In this document: positions 8,807 to 63,665 of the stretch, piece after piece
Numbering within the stretch: the stretch's first letter is position 1
Layout of the letters: every line of letters starts with the position of its first letter
DNA from: a bacterium
GTDB lineage: Bacteria; Patescibacteriota; Microgenomatia; UBA1406; GWC2-37-13
Length of the DNA stretch: 64,000 nucleotides
Assembly: GCA_021825445.1 (NCBI GenBank)
Contig: JAKAHA010000005.1
Location: 21,316-85,315 of the forward strand
Direction of reading: 5' to 3'
Position numbers and translations under genes: made by a program
Notes under the pieces: model-generated
What the model saw: only the letters and a program-made list of their open reading frames with translations
Told to the model about the DNA's origin: nothing
Databases searched by the model: none

Positions 8807-9664
8807 TTATATTATTGTACCGATTGTCGACATAAATAAACCAATCAGTACAAAAATTATAAATAATAAATGAGCAGTGTTTTTTCCTCCAATTCTTATA
8901 ATGTTAAATTTGGATGCAAAATAAAAATCAAGTACCAATGCCAACATAAGAAACATCATGAAAATAATATTGAGGTTAAAGGTGAAGTGAAAAGCGTTGA
9001 ACTTTGGTTGAATGGCTTTTTGAGTAACAATTTGCTCAGTATTTTTTGGTACGACTTCACTTGCCTGGACTGCCGGAGGAGTAAATGGATTACTACTTGC
9101 CATTGGTTTTCCAAATTCTTGGACAACTAAAGTAGTTTGTTCACCATTTAAAGTTCCGTTGACGATTGCATAACCAACTTCTGTATATTCTCGCTTCAAT
9201 AAATTATCTCTATGAGTGGTCGAATTCATCCAAGCATCAACAACGCCATTGCTAAATAAAAAATTTTTTGCTAAATTTTCTCCGGCATACTCATATTTAT
9301 AACCAGCTCCCAATATAAAATCCCAAGGGGTTTTTCCATCGGGAGAGTAGTGCGACCAATAATTTTCTTGAAACATATTTTCAGCTTTTTTTTGAGCGGC
9401 TAATGCTAAAGAAGAATTTAGAGATAATGGTGGTAAACCGTTTTTTTGTCTTTGTTCATTTGTTAGTTGATAAAGTTTTTCCACACTAATGTCTGTTGCA
9501 AATCCCAGTACGTCATGTAGGTTCCCCTGTTTAAAAACCATCATCATTAAAAAGGCGATTACAAGGTAGATCGTTAAAAAATCGGTGTGTAAACTTTTGG
9601 CTCGAAAGTTATTTTCTTCATGTGGAACAAAAAGACGATGAATAAAAGTTTTTATTTTTTCCAT
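8807..9664 (-). CDS. CAP/SCP (PR-1-like) domain protein with flanking TM helices
   Basis: Contains LNSSLALAAQKKAENMFQENYWSHYSPDG...AGENLAKNF...VDAWMNSTTHRDNLL, typical of SCP/CAP domains. Confidence 0.75.
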   Translation of the reverse strand: MEKIKTFIHRLFVPHEENNFRAKSLHTDFLTIYLVIAFLMMMVFKQGNLHDVLGFATDISVEKLYQLTNEQRQKNGLPPLSLNSSLALAAQKKAENMFQENYWSHYSPDGKTPWDFILGAGYKYEYAGENLAKNFLFSNGVVDAWMNSTTHRDNLLKREYTEVGYAIVNGTLNGEQTTLVVQEFGKPMASSNPFTPPAVQASEVVPKNTEQIVTQKAIQPKFNAFHFTFNLNIIFMMFLMLALVLDFYFASKFNIIRIGGKNTAHLLFIIFVLIGLFMSTIGTII

Positions 9665-10955
9665 ATGATAATTTCATTCTAAATAATATTGAGCCGATAG
9701 TCAAAAGGGAATACGAAGAAGAAAGAATTGTCAAAAGATTGATTAACGAAGAATCATTATGATTAATTTTCGTTGAAACGCCAAGAATGTTTAAAGATGT
9801 TAAGCCCGCCTCTGTACTGTCAAGGATCGGACTACGGCGAGGCGAAGTAGGGGTCTGATTTATCAGACTCCTGTTAATTGGAATTGTTGTTTGACCAATT
9901 TTTGTTGGTGTCGTAGAGATGTCCAATTTGGGCGTCTGTGCTTCAATGGGGGTTGGGTTAGGTGTTGGATTAATACATGAATCATTGACAGAATTTTTAC
10001 TGGGTTCTTGAAGACAAAAATCATCAGAATCTATCGATGTTCTGCCTAAAGTTTTTCCTTGTTCGGTTTTTTGATATTCAAAATCGTCTTTTAAATTTTT
10101 ATTAAAATCCAACAAACGAACAGAATCTCCACTATTATTAAACATTGATGAAGTTAGATCAAAAACACCATAACTTTTCGGATTAATTTCTAAAGAAAAT
10201 ATTTTAGGAGTTGATCCTGCGTTTTCCAGATCATCGACATACCAGTTATTTAAGGAAACTACAAAATCATTATTATTATAAATTTCTATCCATTCTTTTT
10301 CACCGGGGAGGGAATTTACCATGACTTCGGAAAGATAGACGTTGTCATAAGAAAGGGAGCCCGCCTCCGTCAAGACTACGACGGGCGAAGTCGGAGTCGG
10401 TTGAATCGGTATAGAGGTTAAAATAATTGTTGGTGATAACGTCGGTACAGGTGTTAAGGTTGGAGTTAATGTCGAAGTTGGCGTTGGCGTCAACGTTGGG
10501 AACAAACATGTTTGTTCCATACCAGAATTATAAAATCCTAAATTTGCAGATCCTGTTGCCCAGTTATTTGTTCCATCCGGTGTTCTAAAAAATGAAATTC
10601 CGGAACCAGAACTGGATTTATAAGAAAAAGAATCTATTAATTGTTGTGAATTATCAATTAATCTAATAGTGTCAGTAGAAGATTTATTTAAATAAAAATT
10701 TGAAGAAAAAACCAAACAAGCATTAGGGTAAATTATTGAATTTGTAGGGATAGAATAAGTCCCGGAAGAAGAACCATCGTCGTCAATGATCCAACCAGAA
10801 ATATCAGCACTTTCCGTACCCGAATTAAATATTTCGACCGATTGAGGTTGGGGATCAATGAGGAATTCGTTGATTAGGATTTTAGAATCAGCAAAAACAA
10901 AATTAACAATAAACAATAACCTAATAAATATAATAATCAAAATTAATTTTTTCAT
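9618..10955 (-). CDS. Secreted protein with two lamin-tail domains (LTD), Thr/Pro-rich linkers and a C-terminal TM anchor
   Basis: Signal-like N-terminus. ILINEFLIDPQP..VEIFNSG..ADISGWIIDD and YLSEVMVNSLPGEKEWIEIYNNND..LNNWYVDD match the LTD pattern. TPTPTSTLTPTLTPVPT linker present. Confidence 0.75.
   Translation of the reverse strand: MKKLILIIIFIRLLFIVNFVFADSKILINEFLIDPQPQSVEIFNSGTESADISGWIIDDDGSSSGTYSIPTNSIIYPNACLVFSSNFYLNKSSTDTIRLIDNSQQLIDSFSYKSSSGSGISFFRTPDGTNNWATGSANLGFYNSGMEQTCLFPTLTPTPTSTLTPTLTPVPTLSPTIILTSIPIQPTPTSPVVVLTEAGSLSYDNVYLSEVMVNSLPGEKEWIEIYNNNDFVVSLNNWYVDDLENAGSTPKIFSLEINPKSYGVFDLTSSMFNNSGDSVRLLDFNKNLKDDFEYQKTEQGKTLGRTSIDSDDFCLQEPSKNSVNDSCINPTPNPTPIEAQTPKLDISTTPTKIGQTTIPINRSLINQTPTSPRRSPILDSTEAGLTSLNILGVSTKINHNDSSLINLLTILSSSYSLLTIGSILFRMKLSYGKNKNFYSSSFCST
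9805..9853. repeat. GC-rich hairpin element, family 3, copy A (inside the LTD ORF)
   Basis: Sequence cccgcctctgtactgtcaaggatcggactacggcgaggcgaagtagggg. The 3' 22 nt are identical to the copy at 23357-23378. Confidence 0.7.
10360..10396. repeat. GC-rich hairpin element, family 3, copy B (inside the LTD ORF)
   Basis: Sequence cccgcctccgtcaagactacgacgggcgaagtcggag. It aligns to copy C with 1 indel and a few substitutions. Confidence 0.7.
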
Positions 10956-51103: not shown

Positions 51104-51174
51104 GGGCCTATGGTTCAACGGTAGAATGTGGCATTCGCATTGCCAAGATCCGAGTTCAATTCTCGGTAGGTCCA
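51104..51174 (+). tRNA. tRNA-Ala (anticodon CGC)
   Basis: Hand-folded cloverleaf. Acceptor GGGCCTA/TAGGTCC with the G3:U70 Ala identity pair. Anticodon stem TGGCA/TGCCA, loop TTCGCAT. T arm CCGAG-TTCAATT-CTCGG. Discriminator A. CCA is not encoded. Confidence 0.9.
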
Positions 51175-51204
51175 CACGAAATTTGATATAATCTCTGGTA
51201 AAAT

Positions 51205-51276
51205 GGATCTGTAGTTCAACGGTTAGAACGGTACTCTTATAAAGTACAGGCGATGGTTCGACTCCATCCTGATCCA
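51205..51276 (+). tRNA. tRNA-Ile (anticodon UAU)
   Basis: Hand-folded. Acceptor GGATCTG/CTGATCC with one U-U mismatch. D arm GTTC-AACGGTTA-GAAC. Perfect anticodon stem GTACT/AGTAC with loop CTTATAA. T arm GATGG-TTCGACT-CCATC. Confidence 0.8.
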
Positions 51277-51290
51277 CAGAATGTAGTTTT

Positions 51291-51363
51291 GCCGAGATAG
51301 CCAAGGTGGTCACGGCGGAGGTCTGAAAAACCCCAGATGCGTGTTCGACTCACGCTCTCGGCA
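51291..51363 (+). tRNA. tRNA-Phe (anticodon GAA)
   Basis: Hand-folded. Acceptor GCCGAGA/TCTCGGC. Anticodon stem GAGGT/ACCCC with one A:C mismatch, loop CTGAAAA. T arm GCGTG-TTCGACT-CACGC. The D arm GCC-AAGGTGGTCA-CGGC is atypical. Confidence 0.75.
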
Positions 51364-51389: not shown

Positions 51390-52898
51390 ATGCGAAAAAT
51401 TCCAGGTACGATGATTTCTCAACATCCGGACCATGGTAATAAACCTTATTGGCAAAAAAATGCTTTCATAAAAACTGGGGATGAAATAAAAGAATGTTTT
51501 TTATCTTTTTCTGAACTTGGAACTTCTGAATATAAGTGGGACTGGGAAGGGAAATATGTTGACGAATCAGTGATCGAGAAATTGTTGAGCGAACACCACG
51601 AATATTTTAAAAAAAATCTACTTGGAAAAGAAAAATTTTTAACTTTTAGATTACCTAATCCAAAAGTAGAAACAGAATTTCGGTTGGGACGAGCATTTAT
51701 GGGAATACTGGGCGCAGCTGGACTTGCCAAAAAAATTGGTCTTCATAGTCCGCCACTATTTGAAGTAATTCTACCAATGACTGAGTCAGCCGAAGAAATG
51801 ATTGCAATTCAAGAAGCTTTTAAAGAAATAGCATCGCTTAAACACGCTCTTTATGATTTTGGAGAAGAAAGCTTAAAGCATATTGAAATAATTCCGTTAT
51901 TTGAACAAGTGTCAACAATTATCAGCTCGCATAAAATTTTGGAAAAATATTTACAATTGCATAAAAAAATATTTAATTTTAAACCGCTATATATTCGACC
52001 ATATTTAGCTCGCTCTGACCCGGCTTTAAATTCAGGACTTGTCCCTACAGTTTTGGCTATCAAAATCGGACTTTCGCATTATCTGGATTTTGAGAAAAAA
52101 TATAATATTAAACTTTATCCAATCATTGGTTCGGCATCTTTGCCTTTTCGTGGAGGGCTGACACCAAATACGGTTGAGCAATTTTGTCATGAATACAGGG
52201 GGATAAAAACAGTTCTGATACAAAGCGCTTTTAGATATGATTATGAAAAAAAATCAGTCATAACGGCAATAAAAAAATTGGAAAAAATTCTTCCTTCAGG
52301 AAAAGCCGATTCAATTTCAAAAAAAGAGGAAGAAAAATTGGAAAAAATAATTTCTGTTTTTGAAAAATATTATCGAAGTTCAGTTGAGACAATCGCTGAA
52401 CTGGTCAACAATGTATCGGGATACTTGCCAAAAAGACGGGAAAGAGTCTTGCATATTGGACTTTTTGGATATTCTCGAGGCGTAGGTAAGGTGAGATTAC
52501 CAAGAGCGATTGGTTTTACTGGTGCTTTATATTCATTGGGAATTCCGCCAGAAATAATCGGGACTGGTCGGGGAATAAAATATGCAATTGAAAATAATCA
52601 GATAAAATTATTAGAGAAATATTATTTAAATATCAAAGATGATCTAAAAAAAGCTGGTCGATTTGTCCAAAAAGATGAGCTAATAAAATTAGCACATGGA
52701 GGATCCCAAGTTTGGAAAGATATTTTAAACGATATTGTAGAGATAGAAAAATATTTAGGAGAAAAATTTATACCAAAGACAGCCGCCGAAAGAGAACATT
52801 TTGTGCTTGTTAAAAAACTTCACGAAAAAATCGACTCTGGAAAAAATTATCAAATATATCTCAATAAATTGGCTGTTCTTAGGAAAAGTTTGGGATAA
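51390..52898 (+). CDS. ppcA: Archaeal-type phosphoenolpyruvate carboxylase
   Basis: N-terminus MRKIPGTMISQHPDH matches the characteristic atPEPC start (IPR-MSTQHPDN). The roughly 500-aa length fits atPEPC rather than the roughly 900-aa bacterial Ppc. Confidence 0.85.
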   Translation: MRKIPGTMISQHPDHGNKPYWQKNAFIKTGDEIKECFLSFSELGTSEYKWDWEGKYVDESVIEKLLSEHHEYFKKNLLGKEKFLTFRLPNPKVETEFRLGRAFMGILGAAGLAKKIGLHSPPLFEVILPMTESAEEMIAIQEAFKEIASLKHALYDFGEESLKHIEIIPLFEQVSTIISSHKILEKYLQLHKKIFNFKPLYIRPYLARSDPALNSGLVPTVLAIKIGLSHYLDFEKKYNIKLYPIIGSASLPFRGGLTPNTVEQFCHEYRGIKTVLIQSAFRYDYEKKSVITAIKKLEKILPSGKADSISKKEEEKLEKIISVFEKYYRSSVETIAELVNNVSGYLPKRRERVLHIGLFGYSRGVGKVRLPRAIGFTGALYSLGIPPEIIGTGRGIKYAIENNQIKLLEKYYLNIKDDLKKAGRFVQKDELIKLAHGGSQVWKDILNDIVEIEKYLGEKFIPKTAAEREHFVLVKKLHEKIDSGKNYQIYLNKLAVLRKSLG

Positions 52899-54212: not shown

Positions 54213-54458
54213 ATGTTTACGGTTTATATTTTAAAGTCGAAAACAACAGGTAAGTTCTACATCGGTTGTACAAATAACATTATTAGAAGATTGCAAGAAC
54301 ATAACGCAAATAAAACACGGTCAATAAAAAATAAAGGACCATTTGAATTAATTCATCAAGAAAATTATAATAGCTTGTCTGAAGGAAGAATAAGGGAGCG
54401 AAAGATAAAGTTATACAAAGGAGGAAATGCCTTTAAAAAGTTGATTATGCGGGCGTAG
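54213..54458 (+). CDS. Small GIY-YIG nuclease-domain protein (catalytic domain only, 81 aa)
   Basis: MFTVYILKSKTTGKFYIGCTNNIIRRLQEHN...RERKIK shows the GIY, YIG, Arg and Glu motifs. The 11 extra N-terminal codons in the track ORF are encoded by the tRNA fragment. The last 3 sense codons and the stop (M-R-A-TAG) lie in the tRNA-Gly acceptor stem and positions 8-10. Confidence 0.85.
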   Translation: MFTVYILKSKTTGKFYIGCTNNIIRRLQEHNANKTRSIKNKGPFELIHQENYNSLSEGRIRERKIKLYKGGNAFKKLIMRA

Positions 54459-54520
54459 TTTACCGGTAAAATGCCTCCTTGCCAAGGAGGAGACAGAGGG
54501 TCCAATTCCCTTCGCCCGCT
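54449..54520 (+). tRNA. tRNA-Gly (anticodon GCC)
   Basis: Hand-folded. Acceptor GCGGGCG/CGCCCGC, discriminator U. Anticodon stem CCTCC/GGAGG, loop TTGCCAA. T arm GAGGG-TCCAATT-CCCTT. Note C where the near-universal U55 is expected. Confidence 0.88.
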
Positions 54521-54525
54521 CATTT

Positions 54526-56271
54526 TTACAGACCAGATTGAATAACGGCAGTTCCTGCGTTTGTGTCTCCAGCACTTACAGTTCTAACTATTGGATCTCC
54601 ACCTGGATATATCCATTTAACTGGCAAGGCTGCTAATGAATATTCATCATCGATTTTACAAAAACCATTTGTAAGAAAATGTATCATACCATCATTGTTA
54701 TTATTATGTAAAAAATTAGAAAGTTGAATTATCTTATATATACCTTCAACCTTTAATGCATTTGTTAACGGTGTATTATCTGATGCATCAGGAGTGATCT
54801 TTCTATCCAATAGCCATTGTACTACTCGTAATTTTCCATATCCTAAAGCCAACACTTCTCTTTTCATTTTTTCCGTTGTGGCATTTTTTCGAATAGAAAT
54901 ATCGATATCTTGACCATGGATGTGCAGTCTTTCAACTTCCAAATATTTGGCTAGAGTAAAAGCATTTTCATAAAACGCAATTATTTTATCGTCGCTTTTA
55001 CTTAATTCTAAACCTAATTCTTCATGGAGATTTTTTGTAATTTTCCCAAATTCTTCATCGTTAATGCTAAAACTATCAATATTTCCTTTAAGTACATCTC
55101 TGAAAAATTTTAGATCTTCAAATTTCCCGGAAAATTCAAACAAAATTTTTAATTTACCTGAAGAGCGTAATATCTTAAATTGTTCAACCATTTTTTTTGA
55201 AATTTCAGAATATCTGTCTTGAGGTATTCTTTGAAGTTGGTTTGGATCAGTTGCAAAAAAATAATCATAATTTTGAGCAATCATTTTCAATTGATCATCA
55301 GTAAAATTTAATATTGGATCCGTATCCATGTTATTTCCATCCTTGTCATAATAGTGACTAACAACTGCTATTCGATCACTTTTTTTTACTTCATATGTTT
55401 TTTTTCCAATTATAATTTTTATATCTTTTTTAAATTCAATCGGATAATTAATTTTAGTCGGTGCCTCTGGAGTTGCAGATTCAACAATTGTTTTATTTTT
55501 TATTTTTCCATCCTCAATGGATAGAAATTTTAGTTTATCATTTTTGAATGTTGCTGCTAATTCTGAAGAATTGTGTTGTGTTGTGAGAGTTACGTCTTCA
55601 CCAATTGAATCAAGAAGTTTCGTCAAATGAGCTGCCGATCCACCCACTTTAAAAAAATCTGGATTAGGAGAAAATATCTCATTAATCCAGTCTCTTAGCT
55701 TAAGACCTGTTCCGACCTTACCATCAAGATCATTTATTTGCATTCTGCCGTTACCTTTACCTATAAATTGTCTAATAATGTGAGCAATAATCTCTTCGCG
55801 TGTTGTAACTATATATGGAATATTGCCATCAGTTTCCACTATTTTAATAATTTTTTCTATTACATTTTCATCGGTAAACTTTTGTGCACTGGTTATGGCT
55901 TTATCTATTATGTCGTTGGCATTATCAGGATTTAGATTTATTAACTTATCAACACAAACACTATTACCTAATAATATTTTTTTATTTGTAGGAGTCAACT
56001 TTTTACTTTCAGAAAATAATTTACTTAAACTGTAGACTCCACTATAAATAATTTTATGAGTGATACCTTTTAATTGTTTTTCTAATAATTTCATATCTTT
56101 AAATTGTTGAAGTGGGAGAGTAAAAAGTCGAGGTTTACCTGTATCAGCGTGATATGCTTGAGAATGTATTTCAACCATGACTAAAATAATATCATATTTA
56201 ATCAAAAATACATCAATTATTTTAAGTATCTCCCTATAAATATGGTCAGCCAGAGGAAAATCAGAAGGCAA
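54526..56271 (-). CDS. ADP-dependent (archaeal-type) sugar kinase family protein (ADP-PFK/GK-like, ribokinase superfamily)
   Basis: Colinear matches to recalled ADP-GK motifs: KVGGSAAHLTKLL (cf. RMGGQAGIMANLL), FEFSG...SFSINDEEFGKI (cf. LEFA...VGLNEVELASI, NxxE), ERLHIHGQ (cf. KRIHFHT), TVSAGDTNAG (cf. TVGIGDTISS). The start may be at 56178 (MVEIHS). Confidence 0.65.
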   Translation of the reverse strand: MPSDFPLADHIYREILKIIDVFLIKYDIILVMVEIHSQAYHADTGKPRLFTLPLQQFKDMKLLEKQLKGITHKIIYSGVYSLSKLFSESKKLTPTNKKILLGNSVCVDKLINLNPDNANDIIDKAITSAQKFTDENVIEKIIKIVETDGNIPYIVTTREEIIAHIIRQFIGKGNGRMQINDLDGKVGTGLKLRDWINEIFSPNPDFFKVGGSAAHLTKLLDSIGEDVTLTTQHNSSELAATFKNDKLKFLSIEDGKIKNKTIVESATPEAPTKINYPIEFKKDIKIIIGKKTYEVKKSDRIAVVSHYYDKDGNNMDTDPILNFTDDQLKMIAQNYDYFFATDPNQLQRIPQDRYSEISKKMVEQFKILRSSGKLKILFEFSGKFEDLKFFRDVLKGNIDSFSINDEEFGKITKNLHEELGLELSKSDDKIIAFYENAFTLAKYLEVERLHIHGQDIDISIRKNATTEKMKREVLALGYGKLRVVQWLLDRKITPDASDNTPLTNALKVEGIYKIIQLSNFLHNNNNDGMIHFLTNGFCKIDDEYSLAALPVKWIYPGGDPIVRTVSAGDTNAGTAVIQSGL

Positions 56272-56849
56272 TAAACAGTCTCTGATATGGCGTTAAAATA
56301 GTTAAAAAACAAAAAAATATTTCCTGCAATTGTTTCTACAAGAATTAATAATTTTGAAAAATGAACAAAGTTTTCGCTATTTGTTAATCTTGCCAAAGTA
56401 TATTGTGAAGATATCCAGGAAAAAAAAGTAATGATAAAAATTATTAAATGAATAAAAGGGAATTGGCTAACTGGGAAAAATCCAAGTAATCCAAAAGACA
56501 AAATTGCCACGAGTAAAACTGCAGCGGGCAATGTCTTTAATCTCAAATTATAAAACTTAAAAACGTAATAAGCAAAGCTTAGATCCAAAAAACTTTTTAT
56601 AAAAAATAAAGAATTGAAAATAGACAGATTTTTACTATCCAAAAAACGAGCTAAACCAGAAATTGTATAATCGGAAAAATTATAACGATTAGTTTTGACG
56701 CCCATATAGAAAGTTGAAGATAAGAAAAATAAGATTGAAAGAATCGCATTGTATTTAAAGATCGTAAGCCGATTGGTAGATTTGGATTCGTCCATAAGAC
56801 CATTATAATCCTTGGAGAATTTTTTCGAAAGCCTCTTTGTCAGAGTCAT
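56217..56849 (-). CDS. Polytopic membrane protein (DUF998-like by pattern)
   Basis: 210 aa, about 6 TM helices, DYTISGLARF motif. Confidence 0.45.
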   Translation of the reverse strand: MTLTKRLSKKFSKDYNGLMDESKSTNRLTIFKYNAILSILFFLSSTFYMGVKTNRYNFSDYTISGLARFLDSKNLSIFNSLFFIKSFLDLSFAYYVFKFYNLRLKTLPAAVLLVAILSFGLLGFFPVSQFPFIHLIIFIITFFSWISSQYTLARLTNSENFVHFSKLLILVETIAGNIFLFFNYFNAISETVYCLLIFLWLTIFIGRYLK

Positions 56850-57279
56850 AAGTCAGGGTTTTTTTTACTTCATCTTGACTCACAAATTTTGCATCACTCA
56901 TTTCGAAGTCGTGATTTTTTGGATCACCCGATACGTATTCCATGAGGAAATAATAAACGGTTTTTTTGTATAGTACTCCTCCAAATTGATATTCGTATTT
57001 ACTAATAATAGGTTCAGGGTTAATAATTTTTGCCTTTATCCCGCCCTCTTCCTCAACTTCGCGGATGGCAGCTGTTTCGTTTGTCTCATTTTTATCTTTG
57101 TCACCTACAAACCCCTTAGGGAAAACCCAGCCTTTATGTTGAGAATGCTGGCAGATGAGCCAAGTTAGATCATAGATATTAGATCCTAGATGATAGATTT
57201 TTTTGAATACAATTCCTCCGGCGGAAACTTGATTAATTATTTTCATAACCAATTGCGTCTTTAATATTTTTAAATCCAT
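56803..57279 (-). CDS. NUDIX hydrolase
   Basis: Nudix box GWVFPKGFVGDKDKNETNETAAIREVEEEGGI. The start is possibly at 57246. Confidence 0.85.
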   Translation of the reverse strand: MDLKILKTQLVMKIINQVSAGGIVFKKIYHLGSNIYDLTWLICQHSQHKGWVFPKGFVGDKDKNETNETAAIREVEEEGGIKAKIINPEPIISKYEYQFGGVLYKKTVYYFLMEYVSGDPKNHDFEMSDAKFVSQDEVKKTLTYDSDKEAFEKILQGL

Positions 57280-58801
57280 CTTTTTCCAATAACTCCTCCA
57301 ACTCTAGGTTAATTTGCGATATTATTTGTGGTCCTTGATATATCATTCCTGTGATCATTTGAATAAGCGATGCCCCAAGCTTTATTTTTTCATAGGCATC
57401 CTGACCATTAAAAACTCCACCACAACCGATGATCAATAATTTTTTACCAAACTTTTTGTATGTCAATTTAATCAGTTCATTTGATCTTTTCTCACAAGGT
57501 TTACCGCTAAAACTCCCAACAGAAAATTTTTTTACCTCTTGTTTGTCTAGCAACTTACTTTTTCTGTCCTTCCAAAGATTTCCAATGATCACTCCTTTAA
57601 CAAATTTATATTTGATAACGACATTAAGCAAAGAAACAAATTCTCGGTCGGGGATAGATATGGGCATCTTGACGAAGATTGGCTTTTTTAACTTCAATCG
57701 TTTAATCGATTGAAGTAATTGATTAAAGTTTTCTGGTTTATAAAAGTCAACATCGGTATTGAGCAAATTTGGGCAGCTGATGTTAATCTCATAATAGCTA
57801 TTTTTTATTTTTAACTTTTCAAATATTTTAAATGAATTGACAATATCTCCAATCGCTTTTTTTGTTGAATCTATAGATTGATTGTTGGACATTCCGATAC
57901 TGATCCCCATCGGGATCATAAATCCTTCGACTCCGCTCAGGACAAGTTTTTTAGAAGTTTTTTCGGCTCCTAAGTTTCTAAAACCTTTATTAACCATTAA
58001 AGATCGTGATCTTGGTAATCGTCCTAAGCGAGGAGGAGGATTACCTTGATAGGATAAATTAGTTATTGTCCCCACACTTTGAAATCCAAAACCGATGGAA
58101 TAAAGAATCTGAGTTAATCTTGACTCATAATCAAATCCGGCAGCTAGTCCAATAGGTCCTTCAAAATTGATTCCGACCAATTTTTGTTTTAATTTTGTTG
58201 ATGAATAATTAAATTTCCAATTAATATATTTTTTAAAATAGCTATTTCCTAATAGCTCACCTAAAAAAATATGTGAATTGTGAATAAATTCGGCGTCAAA
58301 CAAAAAAAAGATTGGCTTAATAAATTTCTGGTATATAAAAGCAATGATAGACAATCTGAGAATAAATCTCTCTTTTTTGAATATTTTATTAACAAGAAAA
58401 AAAATTGTAAAACTCAATAATGCAGACAACATGCAATAAGTACAAATACTATTTAAGATAACAAGTTGGATATAGATAAAATATAAAGAAAAGATTGCAC
58501 CGATTGCAGATTGAAGAATAAGCCAATATATAAATATTTTTTTTCTGTAAATTGCAAACAATATTATTGCGATCAAAAGAAAAGAATATTGAATAACTCC
58601 AAAAACAGCCAGTGGAACTCCAAACATTATGGAATAGGAACTTCTCAAAACTTTGCCACAGTCTGATGCAATCGGTAAGAATCTGTTGACCTTACATGGG
58701 GGAATGACCTGGCTATAATGTTCATAAGTTAAATATCCTGCGTCTGTGATACCTAAAATGATAAAGAGAGTAAGTAAAAATGTTTTTAATTTCATAGACA
58801 C
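57233..58801 (-). CDS. pyrD: Fusion protein: N-terminal VKOR-family thiol oxidoreductase domain + C-terminal class-2-like dihydroorotate dehydrogenase
   Basis: VKOR part: loop cysteines C..(11)..C (PPCKVNRFLPIASDCGKVLRSSYS..FGVPLAVFG) and CTYC in a TM helix. DHODH part: GLAAGFD, GTITNLSYQGNPPPRLGRLP..MVNKGFRNLG, EINISCPN, IIGCGGV. Single uninterrupted 522-codon frame. Confidence 0.85.
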   Translation of the reverse strand: MSMKLKTFLLTLFIILGITDAGYLTYEHYSQVIPPCKVNRFLPIASDCGKVLRSSYSIMFGVPLAVFGVIQYSFLLIAIILFAIYRKKIFIYWLILQSAIGAIFSLYFIYIQLVILNSICTYCMLSALLSFTIFFLVNKIFKKERFILRLSIIAFIYQKFIKPIFFLFDAEFIHNSHIFLGELLGNSYFKKYINWKFNYSSTKLKQKLVGINFEGPIGLAAGFDYESRLTQILYSIGFGFQSVGTITNLSYQGNPPPRLGRLPRSRSLMVNKGFRNLGAEKTSKKLVLSGVEGFMIPMGISIGMSNNQSIDSTKKAIGDIVNSFKIFEKLKIKNSYYEINISCPNLLNTDVDFYKPENFNQLLQSIKRLKLKKPIFVKMPISIPDREFVSLLNVVIKYKFVKGVIIGNLWKDRKSKLLDKQEVKKFSVGSFSGKPCEKRSNELIKLTYKKFGKKLLIIGCGGVFNGQDAYEKIKLGASLIQMITGMIYQGPQIISQINLELEELLEKDGFKNIKDAIGYENN

Positions 58802-58817
58802 ATTATACTTCTATTCG

Positions 58818-59744
58818 TCATTTATTTTTATAGTTTTCGAAAAATTTAATTATATTATCATAAGAAAAACTCCCGGCACGAAAGCGAGATAGATAAAATA
58901 AATTATTACCAGATTGCCAAATCCCAGGAATCACAGACACGGCTGCAGTATAACCTGCAGATCTTACAGTATCGAGACTGTATTGATCAAAGGCACCAAA
59001 AGGATATGCAAATGTTTCTATTTTTATATTAAATTTATTTTCTAGTATTTTTTTACTATCAATTATTTGTTTTGTTGCAATTGATTTTGGCGATTTTTTT
59101 AAATAAAAATGATCAAGAGTATGAGAGCCAATTTCAACCAAATTGCTATCTATAATTTCCTTAATTTCTTTTTCATTCAAAAATCCTTTACGACCAATAA
59201 AATCATCAACTATATAAACCGTTGCCTTAACTTTATACTTTTTAAGTAGAGGAAAAACATCGGTATAAAAATCTTCATAACCATCATCAAAAGTCAAAAC
59301 AGCACTTCTTGAAGAATACGGAGTGTCGCCGGAAAGAATTTTAGGGACTTCCTTAACAAAGATAGTTTTATACTGGTTATCATTTAACATTTTTAATTCT
59401 TTTTCAAAAACAGATGGAATAATATCTAAGCTTTTTCTGATCGTGTCTCCTTGATCTTTTACATACTCAACGTAGTGGTACATGACAATCGGAATACGAT
59501 AGCTTTTTTTTTCTACTGTTGAATACATTCTATTTAATGTTTGTAGATTTTTGGGTTTTTCAAATACAGCCTTTTCATAATATTGTGAAATCAGTTCTTT
59601 TTCGGAAACGATTTTTTTAGTGTTTTTGTGAAATGATGGTTTTGAAGTAAAGACGGTAAATATTATTGCGAAAACAAATCCAAAAAATATTCCTAAAAAA
59701 ATTTTCTCCAAATATTTTTTGTTTTTTAAACCTAAACTAACCAT
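58818..59744 (-). CDS. Polysaccharide deacetylase (CE4, NodB homology domain), membrane-anchored
   Basis: VLTFDDGYEDFY, KATVYIV, GSHTLDH motifs. 13-nt overlap with the upstream gene. Confidence 0.85.
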   Translation of the reverse strand: MVSLGLKNKKYLEKIFLGIFFGFVFAIIFTVFTSKPSFHKNTKKIVSEKELISQYYEKAVFEKPKNLQTLNRMYSTVEKKSYRIPIVMYHYVEYVKDQGDTIRKSLDIIPSVFEKELKMLNDNQYKTIFVKEVPKILSGDTPYSSRSAVLTFDDGYEDFYTDVFPLLKKYKVKATVYIVDDFIGRKGFLNEKEIKEIIDSNLVEIGSHTLDHFYLKKSPKSIATKQIIDSKKILENKFNIKIETFAYPFGAFDQYSLDTVRSAGYTAAVSVIPGIWQSGNNLFYLSRFRAGSFSYDNIIKFFENYKNK

Positions 59745-61024
59745 TCTTTGATTGTATCAAATATGAGACACAACATACCCAACCCGAAAAGAGTAATTGT
59801 TTGAAGGGAAATATTTTTATTTGTTTCGGTTGTTTCAACACCGAGTATTTGTTCGGATATTGATGTGGGTGTTGGTATTTTTGTAGGGGTCGGGTTTTCC
59901 GATCCTCTTGTAAAGATAATTGTTGGTGTTGGTGATGGTGTCAATGTGGGAATTGATGTTGGTTGTGGTGTTGCGGTTGGTATCGGGGTGCTAGTCGGTG
60001 TTGCCGTCGGTGTGTTTGTAGGGGTCGGGTTTCCCGACCCTGTTGTTGGCGTTGGCGTAATGATGGTTGGATCAAATATTTTTAAAATCCATGATTTTCC
60101 GGAGAGAGCAATTATAGCCTGAGCAGTTGTTGTTGAATTTGAAACAAATTTGTTTGAACCATAATCAAAAGCCAAAAATCCGCCGTCATCTTTTGATTGT
60201 TGGGAAATAAGCCAATTTTTAGTATTTGCAGATGCAGTAGAATCTTTCATATCAAGAACGTTAAAAGCCATGAGGACCCAACCTGTCGAATCAGAGTCAC
60301 TTGAACCATAATATCCGAATCCTCCATCGCCATTTTGATTAGCAAGCAAATAGTTTTTTGCACGATTAATTGCATTATCTAGTCCCGAATCAGTTAAGTC
60401 ATTATTTTTTGCCGAAACCAACGCTTGAATAGCAGCTCCAGTCATATCGGCGGAAGTTGAATACCAAGCACAACCCGGGGCAGAATATCCAAAACCCCCA
60501 TCAATAGAATCCTGTTTTGAAATAAGATAACTCAAGATACTTTGTTTTATTTGAGAATTTGAAGTAGATCCTGCGGAAATTTCGGCAAGTAATCCAAAGA
60601 TATCATCATTTAAGGAACACTCATCTCCAATTTGATTATTTTTATATAAATTTTCAAGATTGGTGACATAATTTGTTCCTTTGTAATTGGTTGGATCGCC
60701 GTTTGTTGCAACAATTGCTAAAATTCTTGTTTCCCAATCGGTTGCTGCAGACGACGAACTTGGGACATTGTCAGTTAAAAAATCCTGGAGTGAAATCAAT
60801 GGATTTTTAATTGTAGAAATATCAATTCCATTTGCAGCAAAAGCGATTGATGACCATTGAGATGGAGCAGAAAAACCATTTGTGATTCTACCTGTTGAGT
60901 CTTGTTTGGATTTTAAATAATTTAGTCCGTTATCTATGATAGAATCAGCGGAAATAGTTTTGGAAACAAAAAAACATAAAAATAAGACTAAAAATATTTG
61001 AAAAATAATTTTTTTGCTCTTCAT
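59732..61024 (-). CDS. Surface-anchored alpha/alpha-toroid protein with prenyltransferase/terpene-cyclase-like repeats, Thr/Pro-rich stalk and C-terminal TM anchor
   Basis: Signal peptide. Repeats YLKSKQDSTGRI, YLISKQDSIDGGFGY, YLLANQNGDGGFGYY, WLISQQSKDDGGFLAF. Long TPTPT... linker and terminal hydrophobic helix. Confidence 0.7.
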   Translation of the reverse strand: MKSKKIIFQIFLVLFLCFFVSKTISADSIIDNGLNYLKSKQDSTGRITNGFSAPSQWSSIAFAANGIDISTIKNPLISLQDFLTDNVPSSSSAATDWETRILAIVATNGDPTNYKGTNYVTNLENLYKNNQIGDECSLNDDIFGLLAEISAGSTSNSQIKQSILSYLISKQDSIDGGFGYSAPGCAWYSTSADMTGAAIQALVSAKNNDLTDSGLDNAINRAKNYLLANQNGDGGFGYYGSSDSDSTGWVLMAFNVLDMKDSTASANTKNWLISQQSKDDGGFLAFDYGSNKFVSNSTTTAQAIIALSGKSWILKIFDPTIITPTPTTGSGNPTPTNTPTATPTSTPIPTATPQPTSIPTLTPSPTPTIIFTRGSENPTPTKIPTPTSISEQILGVETTETNKNISLQTITLFGLGMLCLIFDTIKEWLV

Positions 61025-63095: not shown

Positions 63096-63665
63096 TTATA
63101 TAGATAAAACATTTTTTAGGTTGTTTCTATCTGTTGCCCAGTTCGTTTGATTATCTTTAATATATTCTTGAACATAATGAAATGATTTTTTGGTACGGAT
63201 GATATTGTCATAAAATCCTGGTTGCCACCCAAAAGTTGCATTGGTTTTATGAATCATTTTAGTGCAGATTGATTTATATGATCCAACAATTGATGAAATT
63301 GTATGTTTTCCCTGGTTTTGAAATCGATTTATTTTTATGTTTGTATCCGCTGTAGAGAAAAGGCAATGCCTTTTCTCTACGTAGGAAACGACATTGTTGA
63401 TAATCAAAATTCCATGAACGTGATTTGGCATTATTTGAAATTCATCTAATTCTACAAAGGAAAAATGTTTTGGAATTTCAAACCAATATTTATGTACAAT
63501 TTTTCCAATTTCTGACAAATTCATTTTATTATCGACGATTTCACCAAAATAATGTCTACGTTCCTGTGTGCAAATCGTAATAAAATAATACCCATTTCTA
63601 GAATAATCCCAACATGGTAATCGTGTCGATGGAATTCTATATTGATTTTTAAATTTATCTGACAT
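63096..63665 (-). CDS. IS200/IS605-like HUH (Y1) transposase-domain protein, REP-associated tyrosine transposase-like
   Basis: YFITICTQERRHYF, HUH motif MPNHVHGILII, C-terminal GWQPGFYDNIIR...YIKDN pattern. Confidence 0.8.
   Translation of the reverse strand: MSDKFKNQYRIPSTRLPCWDYSRNGYYFITICTQERRHYFGEIVDNKMNLSEIGKIVHKYWFEIPKHFSFVELDEFQIMPNHVHGILIINNVVSYVEKRHCLFSTADTNIKINRFQNQGKHTISSIVGSYKSICTKMIHKTNATFGWQPGFYDNIIRTKKSFHYVQEYIKDNQTNWATDRNNLKNVLSI
63352..63380. repeat. 29-nt palindrome inside the transposase ORF
   Basis: GTAGAGAAAAGGCA-a-TGCCTTTTCTCTAC (14-bp arms), encoding YVEKRHCLFST right after the HUH motif. Confidence 0.8.

What the first reader, a model, noticed from the sequence alone, without database searches (positions are those of the whole stretch)
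57233..58801. VKOR - dihydroorotate dehydrogenase fusion with a class-2-like scaffold but Cys at the catalytic-base position
Seen: one uninterrupted 522-codon frame joins two domains. The first is a canonical VKOR domain, with a loop Cys pair (C-x11-C), the conserved Ser/Gly-Pro segment, and CTYC in a TM helix. The second is a DHODH whose N-terminal helices and GNPPPRLGRLP..VNKGFRNLG segment look class 2 (membrane, quinone-linked). Its active-site loop reads NISCPN, whereas as I recall class 2 enzymes have Ser (NISSPN) and class 1 enzymes have Cys. Established: VKOR homologues pass electrons from extracytoplasmic thiols to a quinone, and class 2 DHODH passes electrons from dihydroorotate via FMN to a quinone. 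Inference: the fusion places two quinone-linked redox modules on one polypeptide. CPR-type organisms generally lack a respiratory chain, so it might share a bound quinone. Alternatively it might use the VKOR CXXC disulfide as the sink for dihydroorotate oxidation, exporting reducing equivalents. Either would be an unusual solution for pyrimidine synthesis. I do not know of a characterised example.
Basis: partly seen in the sequence, partly recalled or inferred. Interest (0 to 1): 0.65.

Follow-up and report, generated by a model that had tools for sequence, protein, structure and literature searches.

The report
VKOR fused to Cys-type quinone DHODH
A candidate-phyla-radiation bacterium encodes one membrane protein that joins a disulfide-bond enzyme (VKOR) to a pyrimidine-synthesis enzyme (dihydroorotate dehydrogenase); the fusion is real, conserved in many related uncultured bacteria and uncharacterised, and it puts two normally quinone-dependent reactions in cells that have no respiratory chain.

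Summary
The ORF lies on the minus strand at 57233-58801 (522 codons from GTG, 520 from the likelier ATG). It encodes a complete VKOR domain: four TM helices, loop pair C36/C48 and C120-T-Y-C123. A 15-18-residue helical linker joins it to a class-2-type DHODH with NISCPN, where solved class 2 enzymes have SSPN.

It is not an artefact. More than 120 protein clusters and 47 of the best 80 GTDB species loci carry the same fusion, in Roizman-, Woese- and Gottesmanbacteria, other Microgenomates and some Paceibacterota. All four VKOR cysteines are invariant down to 35% identity.

- **The Cys base is not fusion-specific.** It marks a large, mostly unfused CPR DHODH clade, and it has a published precedent in anaerobic fungal class-II enzymes.
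- **Direct electron transfer is excluded.** Predicted topology puts the CXXC on the outer face and the DHODH in the cytoplasm, so FMN cannot pass electrons directly to the disulfide. Any coupling needs a quinone.

New here: the class 2 FMN/orotate lysine is relocated by a reciprocal K/Y swap (225↔272).

Best reading: a bifunctional enzyme in which both modules reduce one local, probably scavenged, quinone pool. The terminal sink is unknown. This is a new, uncharacterised variant of known kinds.

The parts
57233..58801 (-). Whole ORF: VKOR-DHODH fusion protein. 522 codons from GTG at 58801; the likelier start is ATG at 58795, giving 520 aa. Stop codon at 57233-57235.
58391..58777 (-). VKOR domain (aa 9-137), a four-TM bundle. 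TM1 is about aa 7-26, TM2 59-84, TM3 89-112 and TM4 116-137.
   Evidence: Pfam PF07884 80.7 bits; hydropathy and positive-inside pattern; AF2 helices 3-30, 55-85, 88-115, 121-140; alignment to Synechococcus VKOR 4nv2/3kp9
58658..58696 (-). Extracytoplasmic loop cysteine pair C36-x11-C48, the electron-shuttling pair of VKOR homologues. The conserved VLRSSYS serine segment follows at 58631-58651.
   Evidence: Invariant in 116/116 aligned close homologues and in all 18 divergent fused sequences; in register with the loop cysteines of Synechococcus VKOR
58433..58444 (-). C120-T-Y-C123 redox CXXC at the outer end of TM4
   Evidence: 121/121 conserved; invariant to 35% identity; aligns to the CMYC motif of 4nv2
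58337..58390 (-). Linker aa 138-155 (NKIFKKERFILRLSIIAF). It is K/R-rich at the cytoplasmic end of TM4, then helical and amphipathic, and runs straight into the first DHODH helix.
   Evidence: (H121-140 followed by H142-165, pLDDT 89-95); unfused relatives begin at the equivalent of aa ~156
58202..58336 (-). DHODH N-terminal helical domain (aa 156-200), the class 2 quinone-tunnel domain. It includes the F-D-x-E-x-x-H motif with His174 (58280-58282).
   Evidence: NCBIfam class 2 models align from profile position 2 at aa 156-159; H. pylori alignment daefiHn/daedaHe; His conserved in 113/114 Cys-type reps; Foldseek TM 0.8 to full-length class 2 structures
57287..58192 (-). DHODH catalytic (FMN) barrel, aa 204-505
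   Evidence: Pfam PF01180 171 bits; TIGR01036 229 bits vs cutoff 200; PDB class 2 hits to 8e-48
57767..57784 (-). Active-site loop N340-I-S-C343-P-N345. The Cys343 codon (57773-57775) sits at the catalytic-base position, which is Ser in canonical class 2.
58127..58129 (-). Tyr225, at the position of the class 2 FMN/orotate lysine (GFDK becomes GFDY)
57986..57994 (-). V270-N271-K272. Lys272 is the reciprocal partner of Tyr225 and is the relocated lysine. The canonical N-R-M is replaced.
   Evidence: (225,272) = (K,Y) in 46 reps, (Y,K) in 35, never (K,K) or (Y,Y)
58019..58021 (-). Arg261, equivalent to the quinone-site Arg of class 2 enzymes (PRxFRL)
   Evidence: 122/122 conserved
56803..57279 (-). 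Downstream NUDIX hydrolase gene that overlaps the end of the fusion ORF. The arrangement is conserved among close Roizmanbacteria only, and its role in the system is doubtful.

Best explanation
This is a bifunctional integral-membrane enzyme of a Roizmanbacteria-like CPR bacterium.

**Shown**
- An N-in/C-in four-helix VKOR bundle carries its loop pair (C36/C48) and CXXC (C120/C123) at the outer face.
- TM4 continues through a 15-18-residue helix directly into the N-terminal helical domain of a cytoplasmic class-2-type dihydroorotate dehydrogenase.
- That DHODH keeps the quinone-site His174 and Arg261 and the FMN/orotate residues. It uses Cys343 in place of Ser, and its lysine has moved from position 225 to 272.

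**Inferred mechanism**
- Outside: a DsbA/MdbA-like oxidoreductase delivers two electrons to C36/C48, then to C120/C123, then to a quinone held in the bundle. This supports disulfide formation in pilins and surface proteins.
- Inside: dihydroorotate is oxidised to orotate at FMN with Cys343 as the base, and FMNH2 is reoxidised by a quinone entering the helical tunnel.
- The two quinone sites lie in opposite leaflets a few nanometres apart on one polypeptide, so both reactions draw on the same small, probably scavenged, quinone pool.
- The VKOR bundle doubles as the membrane anchor that single TM helices or amphipathic helices provide in other class 2 enzymes.
- The Cys-type active site is a clade-wide adaptation to life without respiration, not a consequence of the fusion.

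The terminal oxidant of the quinol is not identified.
For: - **Domain identity.** Both domains are full length and score well above their curated cut-offs.
- **VKOR is under redox selection.** All four VKOR cysteines and S54 are invariant across fused proteins down to 35% identity, so the module is a redox domain and not only an anchor.
- **Topology.** The hydropathy profile, the K/R distribution and the AF2 model (pTM 0.83) agree. A variant with VKOR plus two extra TMs keeps an even TM number.
- **DHODH competence.** H174, R261, N340, N345, K378 and N408 are conserved, and the 225/272 Lys-Tyr swap is perfectly reciprocal.
- **Distribution.** The fusion is widespread: 47 of 79 ORFs in the best GTDB loci, across several Microgenomates lineages and some Paceibacterota.
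- **A natural split.** In a Woesebacteria locus the order is dsbA-like (CPAC), then vkor, then tRNA-Gly, then pyrD. This ties the VKOR module to a DsbA-type partner and keeps VKOR next to DHODH even when they are separate genes.
- **Anchor role.** Other membrane domains (PAP2, single or multiple TMs) are fused at the same N-terminal position in related DHODHs.
- **Literature.** VKOR plus MdbA-like proteins are CPR-enriched and were proposed to oxidise pilins (PMC6744442). CPR lack electron-transport chains (PMC7507113). Cys-type class-II DHODs support anaerobic pyrimidine synthesis in fungi (PMC8520639).
Against: - Both modules reduce quinone, and no quinol-oxidising enzyme, quinone-biosynthesis gene or fumarate reductase lies in the 64-kb window. 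As stated, the scheme lacks a sink.
- No pyrB, pyrC, pyrE or pyrF signature lies within 10 kb of any of 83 loci. A role in de novo pyrimidine synthesis is therefore assumed, not shown.
- The quinone-tunnel Tyr (human Y356) is Ile, and the Thr after the conserved Asn (T409) is Leu, in this clade. The fungal Cys-type enzyme ArUra9 does not use quinone (PMC8520639). The DHODH acceptor may therefore not be a quinone.
- A DsbA-like gene is adjacent in only 1 of 80 loci.
- The interdomain geometry could not be measured, because no model coordinates were available.
Confidence: 0.5

Rival explanations
1. Coupled transmembrane conduit, the quinone-mediated form of the first reader's second idea. Dihydroorotate oxidised in the cytoplasm reduces FMN, then a captive quinone. 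The VKOR module runs in reverse and passes the electrons through C120/C123 and C36/C48 to an extracytoplasmic disulfide, either an oxidised DsbA-like protein or another acceptor. External disulfides thus become the terminal sink that lets pyrimidine synthesis proceed without respiration, or the system supplies reducing power outside the cell.
For: - It solves the missing-sink problem raised by two quinone reducers in a cell without an electron-transport chain (PMC7507113; window survey).
- The covalent link is tight and short and is conserved over deep divergence.
- All four VKOR cysteines are retained.
- Overall thermodynamics are favourable. DHOD-bound FMN lies at about -242 to -330 mV (PMC8520639), against roughly -120 mV for DsbA-type disulfides (my own knowledge).
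- The Cys-type DHODH clade is associated with respiration-independent function in fungi (PMC8520639).
Against: - The step from menaquinol-type quinol to disulfide is uphill (my own knowledge of the potentials).
- VKOR and DsbB homologues are known as thiol-to-quinone enzymes.
- The one syntenic partner found is a DsbA-like protein with a CPAC motif, typical of oxidising pathways.
- Many sister lineages have the same Cys-type DHODH without VKOR, so the DHODH does not need VKOR to find an acceptor.
- The L038 split shows the covalent link is dispensable.
Confidence: 0.17
2. The DHODH domain acts as the electron sink for oxidative protein folding. External thiols reduce VKOR, then quinone, and the quinol is reoxidised through the tunnel by the FMN of the Cys-type DHODH. 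That FMN then reduces a cytoplasmic acceptor at its Cys-containing site, such as fumarate as in class 1A, free flavin or O2. The 'DHODH' would be mainly a quinol-oxidising terminal reductase.
For: - The Cys base is the hallmark of class 1A enzymes, which reduce fumarate at the same site. Evolved yeast depending on a Cys-type class-II DHOD acquired fumarase mutations (PMC8520639).
- No pyr genes accompany the gene in 83 loci.
- In the PMC6744442 supplement the DHO_dh family occurs in more CPR genomes (894) than the ATCase/OTCase family (547), which hints at orphan DHODHs.
- Residues around the flavin and tunnel are altered: the K/Y swap, T409L and Y483I.
Against: - Electron flow from quinol to a DHOD-type FMN (-242 to -330 mV, PMC8520639) is strongly uphill.
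- Orotate as the acceptor is thermodynamically excluded for thiol-derived electrons (my own knowledge of the potentials).
- The orotate-binding Asn residues and the curated equivalog scores point to genuine DHO/orotate chemistry.
- The unfused majority of the clade has no VKOR to serve.
Confidence: 0.08
3. The fusion is only a membrane anchor. The VKOR moiety is a degenerate relic that tethers the DHODH and has no thiol-oxidoreductase function.
For: Unrelated membrane domains (PAP2, single-TM and multi-TM extensions) occupy the same N-terminal position in related DHODHs, and eukaryotic class 2 enzymes use a TM anchor.
Against: - All four redox cysteines, the loop serine and many TM3/TM4 polar residues are invariant across fused proteins down to 35% identity.
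- The domain scores 80.7 bits against a 27.5 cut-off.
- A stand-alone version sits next to a dsbA-like gene in L038.
Confidence: 0.04
4. The fusion is an assembly or frameshift artefact that joins two separate genes.
For: Logan contigs from the source runs do not span the junction. Two related loci do have the halves as separate ORFs.
Against: - The same architecture occurs in more than 120 independent clusters from NCBI, JGI, ENA and Logan.
- It also occurs in 47 GTDB species genomes, including contigs over 0.5 Mb and a complete chromosome.
- The linker sequence is conserved (KER.., Y157, Q158, K162).
- The two split cases have specific causes: a tRNA-Gly insertion in L038 and a deletion plus frameshift in L042.
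Confidence: 0.01

Closest known systems
Bacterial VKOR homologues (Synechococcus VKOR-Trx fusion, PDB 3KP9/4NV2; Actinomyces oris and M. tuberculosis VKOR with MdbA/DsbA)
   Same: Four-TM bundle, loop Cys pair, conserved Ser segment and CXXC at the outer end of TM4, all in register. One split locus has a DsbA-like partner gene. VKOR plus MdbA-like proteins are reported as CPR-enriched (PMC6744442).
   Different: The known fusions add a fifth TM and an extracytoplasmic thioredoxin-like partner. Here the C-terminal fusion is to a cytoplasmic flavoenzyme that is itself a quinone reductase. There is no fifth TM, so the partner domain lies on the opposite side of the membrane.
Class 2 (quinone-dependent) DHODH: E. 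coli PyrD (1F76), H. pylori (6B8S), M. tuberculosis (8OFW), human DHODH
   Same: N-terminal helical tunnel domain with the conserved His and Arg; FMN barrel; N-x-S-x-P-N loop; Foldseek TM about 0.8; passes TIGR01036 and NF003652.
   Different: Cys replaces the catalytic Ser. The GFDK lysine is moved to position 272. N-R-M becomes V-N-K. The Thr after the conserved Asn becomes Leu, and the tunnel Tyr becomes Ile. The protein is covalently anchored by a polytopic redox domain.
Cys-type class-II DHODs of anaerobic or facultative fungi (ArUra9, SjUra9, DbUra9; Bouwknegt et al. 2021, PMC8520639)
   Same: Class-II scaffold with Cys at the catalytic-base position. They occur in organisms living without respiration. 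SjUra9 and DbUra9 keep the N-terminal quinone-associated domain.
   Different: These are eukaryotic enzymes that arose independently and have no VKOR fusion. ArUra9 is N-terminally truncated, cytosolic and flavin-dependent. The CPR clade has further coordinated substitutions (the K/Y swap, T to L, Y to I) that were not reported for the fungal enzymes.
Class 1A/1B DHODH (L. lactis PyrDa/PyrDb-PyrK)
   Same: Cys catalytic base in an N-x-S-C-P-N loop. Class 1B also pairs PyrD with a dedicated electron-transfer partner.
   Different: Class 1 enzymes score much lower (E 1e-14 to 1e-22, against 1e-48 to 1e-88 for class 2). They lack the N-terminal tunnel domain and are soluble. Their acceptors are fumarate, or NAD+ via FAD and an Fe-S cluster.
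E. coli DsbB and PyrD sharing the (mena)quinone pool
   Same: The same pair of reactions, periplasmic thiol oxidation and cytoplasmic DHO oxidation, feeds one membrane quinone pool (my own knowledge).
   Different: In E. coli they are separate proteins, the quinone is made by the cell, and respiratory oxidases or reductases reoxidise it. None of those is evident here.

Membership tests
VKOR family (PF07884) | Profile match above the curated threshold | tested here: met
   80.7 bits vs 27.5, aa 9-137 covering profile positions 2-133 of 134. NCBIfam VKOR models match only below their cut-offs (60.3 vs 120).
VKOR family (PF07884) | Four-TM helix bundle with N and C termini cytoplasmic | tested here: met
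   Four hydrophobic segments, K/R-rich N-terminus, RKK in the TM2-3 loop and KIFKKERFILR after TM4. AF2 helices 3-30, 55-85, 88-115, 121-140. This is a prediction, not an experiment.
VKOR family (PF07884) | CXXC redox motif at the extracytoplasmic end of TM4 | tested here: met
   C120-T-Y-C123; 121/121 conserved; aligns to the CMYC motif of Synechococcus VKOR
VKOR family (PF07884) | Loop cysteine pair between TM1 and TM2, plus a conserved Ser/Thr | tested here: met
   C36 and C48 are invariant, and the VLRSSYS segment with S54 is invariant
VKOR family (PF07884) | Quinone reduction driven by a Trx-fold partner | not testable with these tools
   The only indirect support is a DsbA-like CPAC gene directly upstream of the split vkor in L038 and the literature on CPR MdbA/VKOR (PMC6744442).
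Class 2 (quinone-dependent) DHODH | Curated equivalog models | tested here: met
   TIGR01036 pyrD_sub2 229.4 vs 200; NF003652 267.6 vs 267 (borderline). The other class 2 sub-models fall below their cut-offs. Class 1 models score only 72-78 bits vs 269-301.
Class 2 (quinone-dependent) DHODH | N-terminal two-helix extension forming the quinone tunnel, with the conserved His and Arg | tested here: met
   Class 2 profiles align from aa 156-159 at profile position 2. AF2 helices 142-165, 170-186, 189-197. H174 and R261 are conserved. However, the tunnel Tyr (position 483) is Ile.
Class 2 (quinone-dependent) DHODH | Serine as the catalytic base | tested here: not met
   Cys343 aligns to the Ser of H. 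pylori and rat enzymes and is invariant in the family. The protein is therefore filed as class-2-type with an atypical base, as in the fungal Cys-type class-II enzymes (PMC8520639).
Class 2 (quinone-dependent) DHODH | FMN/orotate lysine in the GFDK motif | tested here: not met
   The motif is GFDY225. A lysine appears at 272 in strict reciprocity across 81 representatives, so the function is probably retained from another position. That last step is an inference.
Class 2 (quinone-dependent) DHODH | Quinone as the physiological electron acceptor | not testable with these tools
   Needs an enzyme assay. The fungal Cys-type precedent shows that the acceptor can differ (PMC8520639).
Class 1A/1B DHODH | Cys base in a soluble enzyme without an N-terminal tunnel domain; profile match | tested here: not met
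   The Cys base is present, but the class 1 models are far below their cut-offs, and the N-terminal domain and a membrane fusion are present.

The most novel reading that the evidence does not exclude
The two modules are redox-coupled through a captive quinone, which would make a self-contained transmembrane electron conduit in a cell with no respiratory chain. Cytoplasmic dihydroorotate oxidation would be discharged onto extracytoplasmic disulfides through a VKOR running in reverse. In the opposite sense, the Cys-type flavoenzyme would serve as the terminal sink for oxidative protein folding. Either version would be a previously undescribed way of linking nucleotide metabolism to envelope thiol-disulfide chemistry, and a minimal substitute for an electron-transport chain in CPR bacteria.
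Probability: 0.22. Interest if true: 0.85.

Novelty: new variant of a known kind. Interest (0 to 1): 0.58.

Why it matters
CPR/Patescibacteria are reported to lack electron-transport chains (PMC7507113). Even so, nearly half of the surveyed CPR genomes keep a DHODH-family protein (PMC6744442 supplement), and this window's gene is of the quinone-dependent type. They are also enriched in VKOR and MdbA disulfide-forming proteins (PMC6744442). What accepts the electrons from these two reactions is an open question.

A conserved protein that welds the two modules together gives a single, expressible object for asking it. It can be tested for which quinone, if any, it binds, which acceptor the Cys-type class 2 scaffold uses, and whether electrons cross the membrane between the modules.

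The work also defines a large bacterial clade of Cys-type class-2-like DHODHs with coordinated active-site changes. The Lys/Tyr position swap is the clearest of these. This parallels the anaerobic fungal enzymes and bears on how pyrimidine synthesis works without respiration.

Tried and rejected
- **Read-level frameshift test.** Logan contigs from four mine-drainage runs are fragmentary and stop short of the junction, so the test is inconclusive.
- **Transcript evidence.** Metatranscriptomes of the same study hold none of the sequence's words.
- **Gene neighbourhood.** Clustering 1,301 ORFs from 80 loci found only lineage-local synteny (NUDIX, DUF998, an aminotransferase). No conserved redox or pyr partner emerged.
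- **Stand-alone VKOR near unfused DHODH.** An HMM search found only the split locus L038 and the frameshifted L042.
- **DsbA-like neighbours.** A jackhmmer search found them in 2 of 80 loci.
- **Pyr-gene motif screen.** Regex searches for PyrB/C/E/F/CarB signatures gave no hits. The motifs came from memory, so this negative result is weak.
- **Window survey.** Annotating all 50 larger ORFs found no quinone, respiratory, pyr or Trx genes.
- **Single or multiple fusion origin.** The NJ tree interleaves fused and unfused forms, and P0144 lies among unfused (C,K,Y) types. Bootstrap support was nil, so no claim is made.
- **Literature.** Seven of the nine searches used looked for the fusion or for DHODH/VKOR in CPR; none returned a paper describing the fusion.
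- **Interdomain geometry.** Model coordinates and PAE are not retrievable here, so whether the VKOR pocket faces the DHODH tunnel was not tested.
- **Direct thiol relay, rejected.** FMN or Cys343 passing electrons directly to the CXXC is rejected on topology, and because no cytoplasmic cysteine is conserved across the fused family.
- **Orotate as sink, rejected.** Orotate reduction as the sink for thiol-derived electrons is rejected on redox potentials (my own knowledge, plus the FMN range quoted in PMC8520639).


Full report
**1. The observation**

The frame reported at 57233-58801 is a real ORF, but it lies on the minus strand. It has 522 codons from a GTG. An ATG two codons in (58795) fits the 520-aa database entry P0001 and the 'MKLK' starts of orthologues better.

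- Pfam finds a complete VKOR domain (aa 9-137, 80.7 bits against a 27.5 cut-off) and a complete DHO_dh domain (aa 204-505, 171 bits).
- NCBIfam ranks quinone-dependent (class 2) DHODH models far above class 1 models. The protein passes TIGR01036 (229 vs 200) and, narrowly, NF003652 (267.6 vs 267).
- Alignments to solved structures put NISCPN on NLSSPN of H. pylori DHODH and NVSSPN of rat DHODH. The offsets to L. lactis DHODA are consistent with C343 aligning to Cys130.
- The VKOR half aligns to the Synechococcus VKOR structures with the loop cysteines, the VL-S-S serine segment and the TM4 CxxC in register.

**2. It is not an artefact**

The 120 best-scoring database clusters (58-99% identity, from NCBI, JGI, ENA and Logan) all carry both Pfam domains. 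An exhaustive search of 50%-identity representatives adds fused proteins down to 35-50% identity.

A scan of GTDB species genomes kept the best 80 of at least 593 relatives. In these, 47 of 79 DHODH ORFs are fused. They come from Roizmanbacteria, Woesebacteria, Gottesmanbacteria (including a complete 995-kb chromosome), other Microgenomates, Cerribacteria and some Paceibacterota.

The window sequence itself occurs in four mine-drainage metagenome runs. Their Logan contigs show no indels where they cover the gene, but they do not reach the domain junction, so that particular check is inconclusive. The window has 32% GC and a typical CPR gene content.

**3. Anatomy and topology**

Hydropathy gives four TM segments: about aa 7-26, 59-84, 89-112 and 116-137. 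Positive charges cluster at the N-terminus, in the TM2-TM3 loop (RKK) and after TM4 (KIFKKERFILR). This indicates an N-in/C-in topology.

An AlphaFold2 model built on 51 homologues (pLDDT 79.8, pTM 0.83) shows the same four helices. TM4 (121-140) runs almost without a break into a helix at 142-165, followed by helices at 170-186 and 189-197. Class 2 profiles begin to align at aa 156-159 at their position 2, and unfused relatives start exactly there. The true linker is therefore only about 15-18 residues.

Three consequences follow:
- The CXXC and loop cysteines face outward.
- The FMN barrel and its N-terminal tunnel domain are cytoplasmic.
- The tunnel domain is tethered directly to the cytoplasmic end of the helix that carries the CXXC at its other end.

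A divergent variant with VKOR plus two further TMs keeps an even helix count, which is consistent with this topology. Foldseek matches the model to full-length class 2 DHODHs with a target-normalised TM-score of about 0.8.

**4. Is each half functional?**

*VKOR half.* In 121 close homologues every cysteine is conserved. Across 18 fused sequences down to 35% identity, C36, C48, C120, C123 and S54 remain invariant. That is strong purifying selection on the VKOR redox centre and argues against a mere anchor.

*DHODH half.* The quinone-site His (H174) and Arg (R261), the orotate/FMN residues N340, N345, K378 and N408, and the glycine-rich FMN loops are all conserved. The residue equivalences to human and E. 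coli enzymes come from my own knowledge of those sequences.

One apparent defect turned out to be informative. The class 2 lysine of the GFDK motif is Tyr225 here. Across 150 representatives, positions 225 and 272 are (K,Y) in 46 and (Y,K) in 35, and never (K,K) or (Y,Y). This reciprocal swap implies that the two side chains are neighbours and that the lysine function is retained from position 272. I take this as good evidence that the domain is catalytically competent.

**5. The Cys base belongs to a clade, not to the fusion**

Of 138 representatives with the S-x-P motif, 124 have Cys at the base position, and most of these are unfused proteins of about 360-380 aa with the N-terminal helical domain. 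Ser appears only among the most distant hits.

The sequences form a graded series:
- the canonical type: S, K225, N-R-M, T409, Y483;
- a few proteins with a canonical scaffold that differ only by Cys;
- a (C,K,Y) type with V270, L409 and I/V/L483;
- the (C,Y,K) type, to which the query and nearly all fusions belong.

Unfused members come from Levybacteria and from Saccharibacteria-, Nomurabacteria- and Magasanikbacteria-labelled genomes.

The literature has a precedent. Bouwknegt et al. 2021 (PMC8520639) showed that rare fungal class-II DHODs with Cys at this position support anaerobic, respiration-independent pyrimidine synthesis.
- The Cys is essential for that in SjUra9.
- The truncated ArUra9 uses free flavins rather than quinone.
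- Strains dependent on DbUra9 acquired fumarase mutations.

The CPR clade is thus a large bacterial counterpart. Its acceptor should not be assumed to be a quinone merely from the scaffold.

**6. Context**

The 64-kb window contains no pyrimidine, quinone-biosynthesis, respiratory or thioredoxin-fold genes. It is dominated by glycosyltransferases and envelope functions.

Across 80 related loci, synteny is only lineage-local: a NUDIX gene immediately downstream, then DUF998, within Roizmanbacteria. A motif screen found no pyrB/C/E/F within 10 kb of any locus (this is weak, because the motifs came from memory).

One locus is instructive. In Woesebacteria GW2011_GWC1_42_9 (L038) the gene order is a membrane-anchored DsbA-like protein (CPAC), then a stand-alone VKOR, then a tRNA-Gly(tcc) gene, then an unfused DHODH with its own ATG. 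This ties the VKOR module to a DsbA-type partner. It also shows that the two halves stay adjacent even when a tRNA gene has split them.

Other relatives carry PAP2, single-TM or unknown multi-TM domains at the same N-terminal position, and one carries a C-terminal cytidylyltransferase. Anchoring is therefore a recurrent theme, although the VKOR version is by far the most widespread.

**7. Background from the literature**

- Méheust et al. 2019 (PMC6744442) found VKOR and an MdbA-like oxidoreductase enriched and often adjacent in CPR, and proposed that they form disulfides in pilins. The paper does not mention a DHODH fusion.
- Its supplementary table lists the DHO_dh family in 894 CPR genomes. 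By comparison, universal families are in about 2,000, the ATCase/OTCase family in 547, NuoK in 2 and COX1 in 33.
- Beam et al. 2020 (PMC7507113) conclude that no Patescibacteria genome encodes a complete electron-transport chain.
- I found no paper describing the fusion.

**8. Mechanism**

*Shown.* This is a polytopic VKOR with an intact outward-facing redox centre, covalently and tightly joined to a cytoplasmic, apparently competent, class-2-type Cys-base DHODH.

*Inferred, and my best reading (about 0.5).* The two modules work in their usual directions. A DsbA/MdbA-like protein passes electrons to the loop pair, then the CXXC, then quinone on the outside. Dihydroorotate passes electrons to FMN (with Cys343 as base and Lys272 assisting), then to quinone in the tunnel on the inside. 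The fusion anchors the DHODH and holds both quinone sites, in opposite leaflets a few nanometres apart, at one small and probably scavenged quinone pool in fixed 1:1 stoichiometry.

*The weakness.* Both reactions reduce quinone, and no sink is visible.

*Rivals.*
- The main rival (about 0.17) closes the loop by running VKOR in reverse, so that external disulfides accept the electrons from dihydroorotate. This is thermodynamically feasible overall, but the quinol-to-disulfide step is uphill, and it runs against the DsbA-type partner found in L038.
- A second rival (about 0.08) makes the flavoenzyme the sink for VKOR-derived quinol, using fumarate, flavin or O2. The low potential of DHOD-bound FMN argues against it.
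- The pure-anchor model (0.04) and the artefact model (0.01) are effectively excluded.

**9. Verdict**

The protein is a member of the VKOR family by all sequence-testable criteria. Its second half is a class-2-type DHODH that fails two textbook class 2 features, the Ser base and the GFDK lysine, in a way shared by a large CPR clade.

The fusion is a new, widespread and uncharacterised variant that combines two known kinds. It is not categorically new, but it offers a concrete handle on how CPR bacteria dispose of electrons from quinone-type enzymes without a respiratory chain.

Noticed in passing
window 58127-58129 (Y225) and 57986-57988 (K272); representatives P0121-P0270: There is a perfectly reciprocal Lys/Tyr swap between the class 2 GFDK lysine position and a position in the N-R-M-G-F loop: (K,Y) in 46 representatives and (Y,K) in 35, never both or neither. 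It splits the Cys-type DHODH clade in two and implies the two residues are in contact in the active site.
   Followed up: yes
L038:9169-11581 (Woesebacteria GW2011_GWC1_42_9, LCET01000005.1): A tRNA-Gly(tcc) gene (10382-10456) sits exactly between the stop of a stand-alone VKOR gene and the ATG of an unfused DHODH gene. A DsbA-like CPAC gene lies directly upstream, and tRNA-Arg and tRNA-Leu lie before that. This looks like fission of the fusion gene by a tRNA insertion.
   Followed up: partly
L042:9962-11415 (Roizmanbacteria GW2011_GWA2_35_19): The fusion gene is broken by a deletion of about 30 codons, which removes the first DHODH helix, plus a frameshift. It is either a pseudogene or an assembly error.
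   Followed up: partly
P0145, P0143, P0158, P0192, P0258, P0134 (representative proteins): The same DHODH clade has other fusions: PAP2-DHODH, DHODH-cytidylyltransferase, single-TM and unknown multi-TM N-terminal extensions, and a VKOR-plus-two-TM-DHODH variant.
   Followed up: partly
P0144 / L081:2111-3658 (44% GC contig, GCA_025491035.1): This VKOR-DHODH fusion has a (K225,F272) DHODH half that is closest to unfused (C,K,Y)-type proteins. It may represent an independent fusion event, but the NJ bootstrap could not resolve this.
   Followed up: partly
window 57494-57496 (C436) and 57422-57424 (C460): Two extra cysteines lie in the FMN-phosphate loops (SGKPC and GCGG). They are conserved within the close Roizmanbacteria family but variable in more distant fused and unfused relatives. 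Their significance is unknown.
   Followed up: partly
window 51390-52898 (+): This ORF is an archaeal-type phosphoenolpyruvate carboxylase (PF14010 PEPcase_2, E 3e-134). It sits next to a cluster of three tRNA genes (51104-51363), and a further tRNA is at 54449-54520.
   Followed up: no
window 21223-44000: A long block of glycosyltransferases (GT2, GT4, GT87), several PMT_2-type mannosyltransferase-like membrane proteins, a polysaccharide flippase and several large ORFs without any Pfam match. It is a cell-envelope glycosylation island.
   Followed up: no
window 54526-56271 (-): A 581-aa ORF with no Pfam family at E<=0.001, lying two genes downstream of the fusion gene.
   Followed up: no
window 8807-10955 (-) and 59732-61024 (-): These encode predicted secreted or surface proteins: a CAP (cysteine-rich secretory) domain protein, a lamin-tail-domain protein, and a prenyltransferase/terpene-cyclase-like alpha-toroid protein with a Pro/Thr-rich tail and a C-terminal TM. 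They are possible substrates of an extracytoplasmic disulfide system.
   Followed up: no
window 63096-63665 (-): A weak IS200-like Y1 transposase match (PF01797, E 9e-6) near the end of the window.
   Followed up: no
record titles of L002, L007, L011-L013 and others, and names: Many binchicken co-assembly MAGs that carry this typically CPR gene are titled 'uncultured Gammaproteobacteria' or 'Pseudomonadales', which look like placeholder or erroneous labels. Some GW2011 proteins are named 'dihydroorotate dehydrogenase 2, nonfunctional', and one partial copy is attributed to Ignavibacteriaceae.
   Followed up: no
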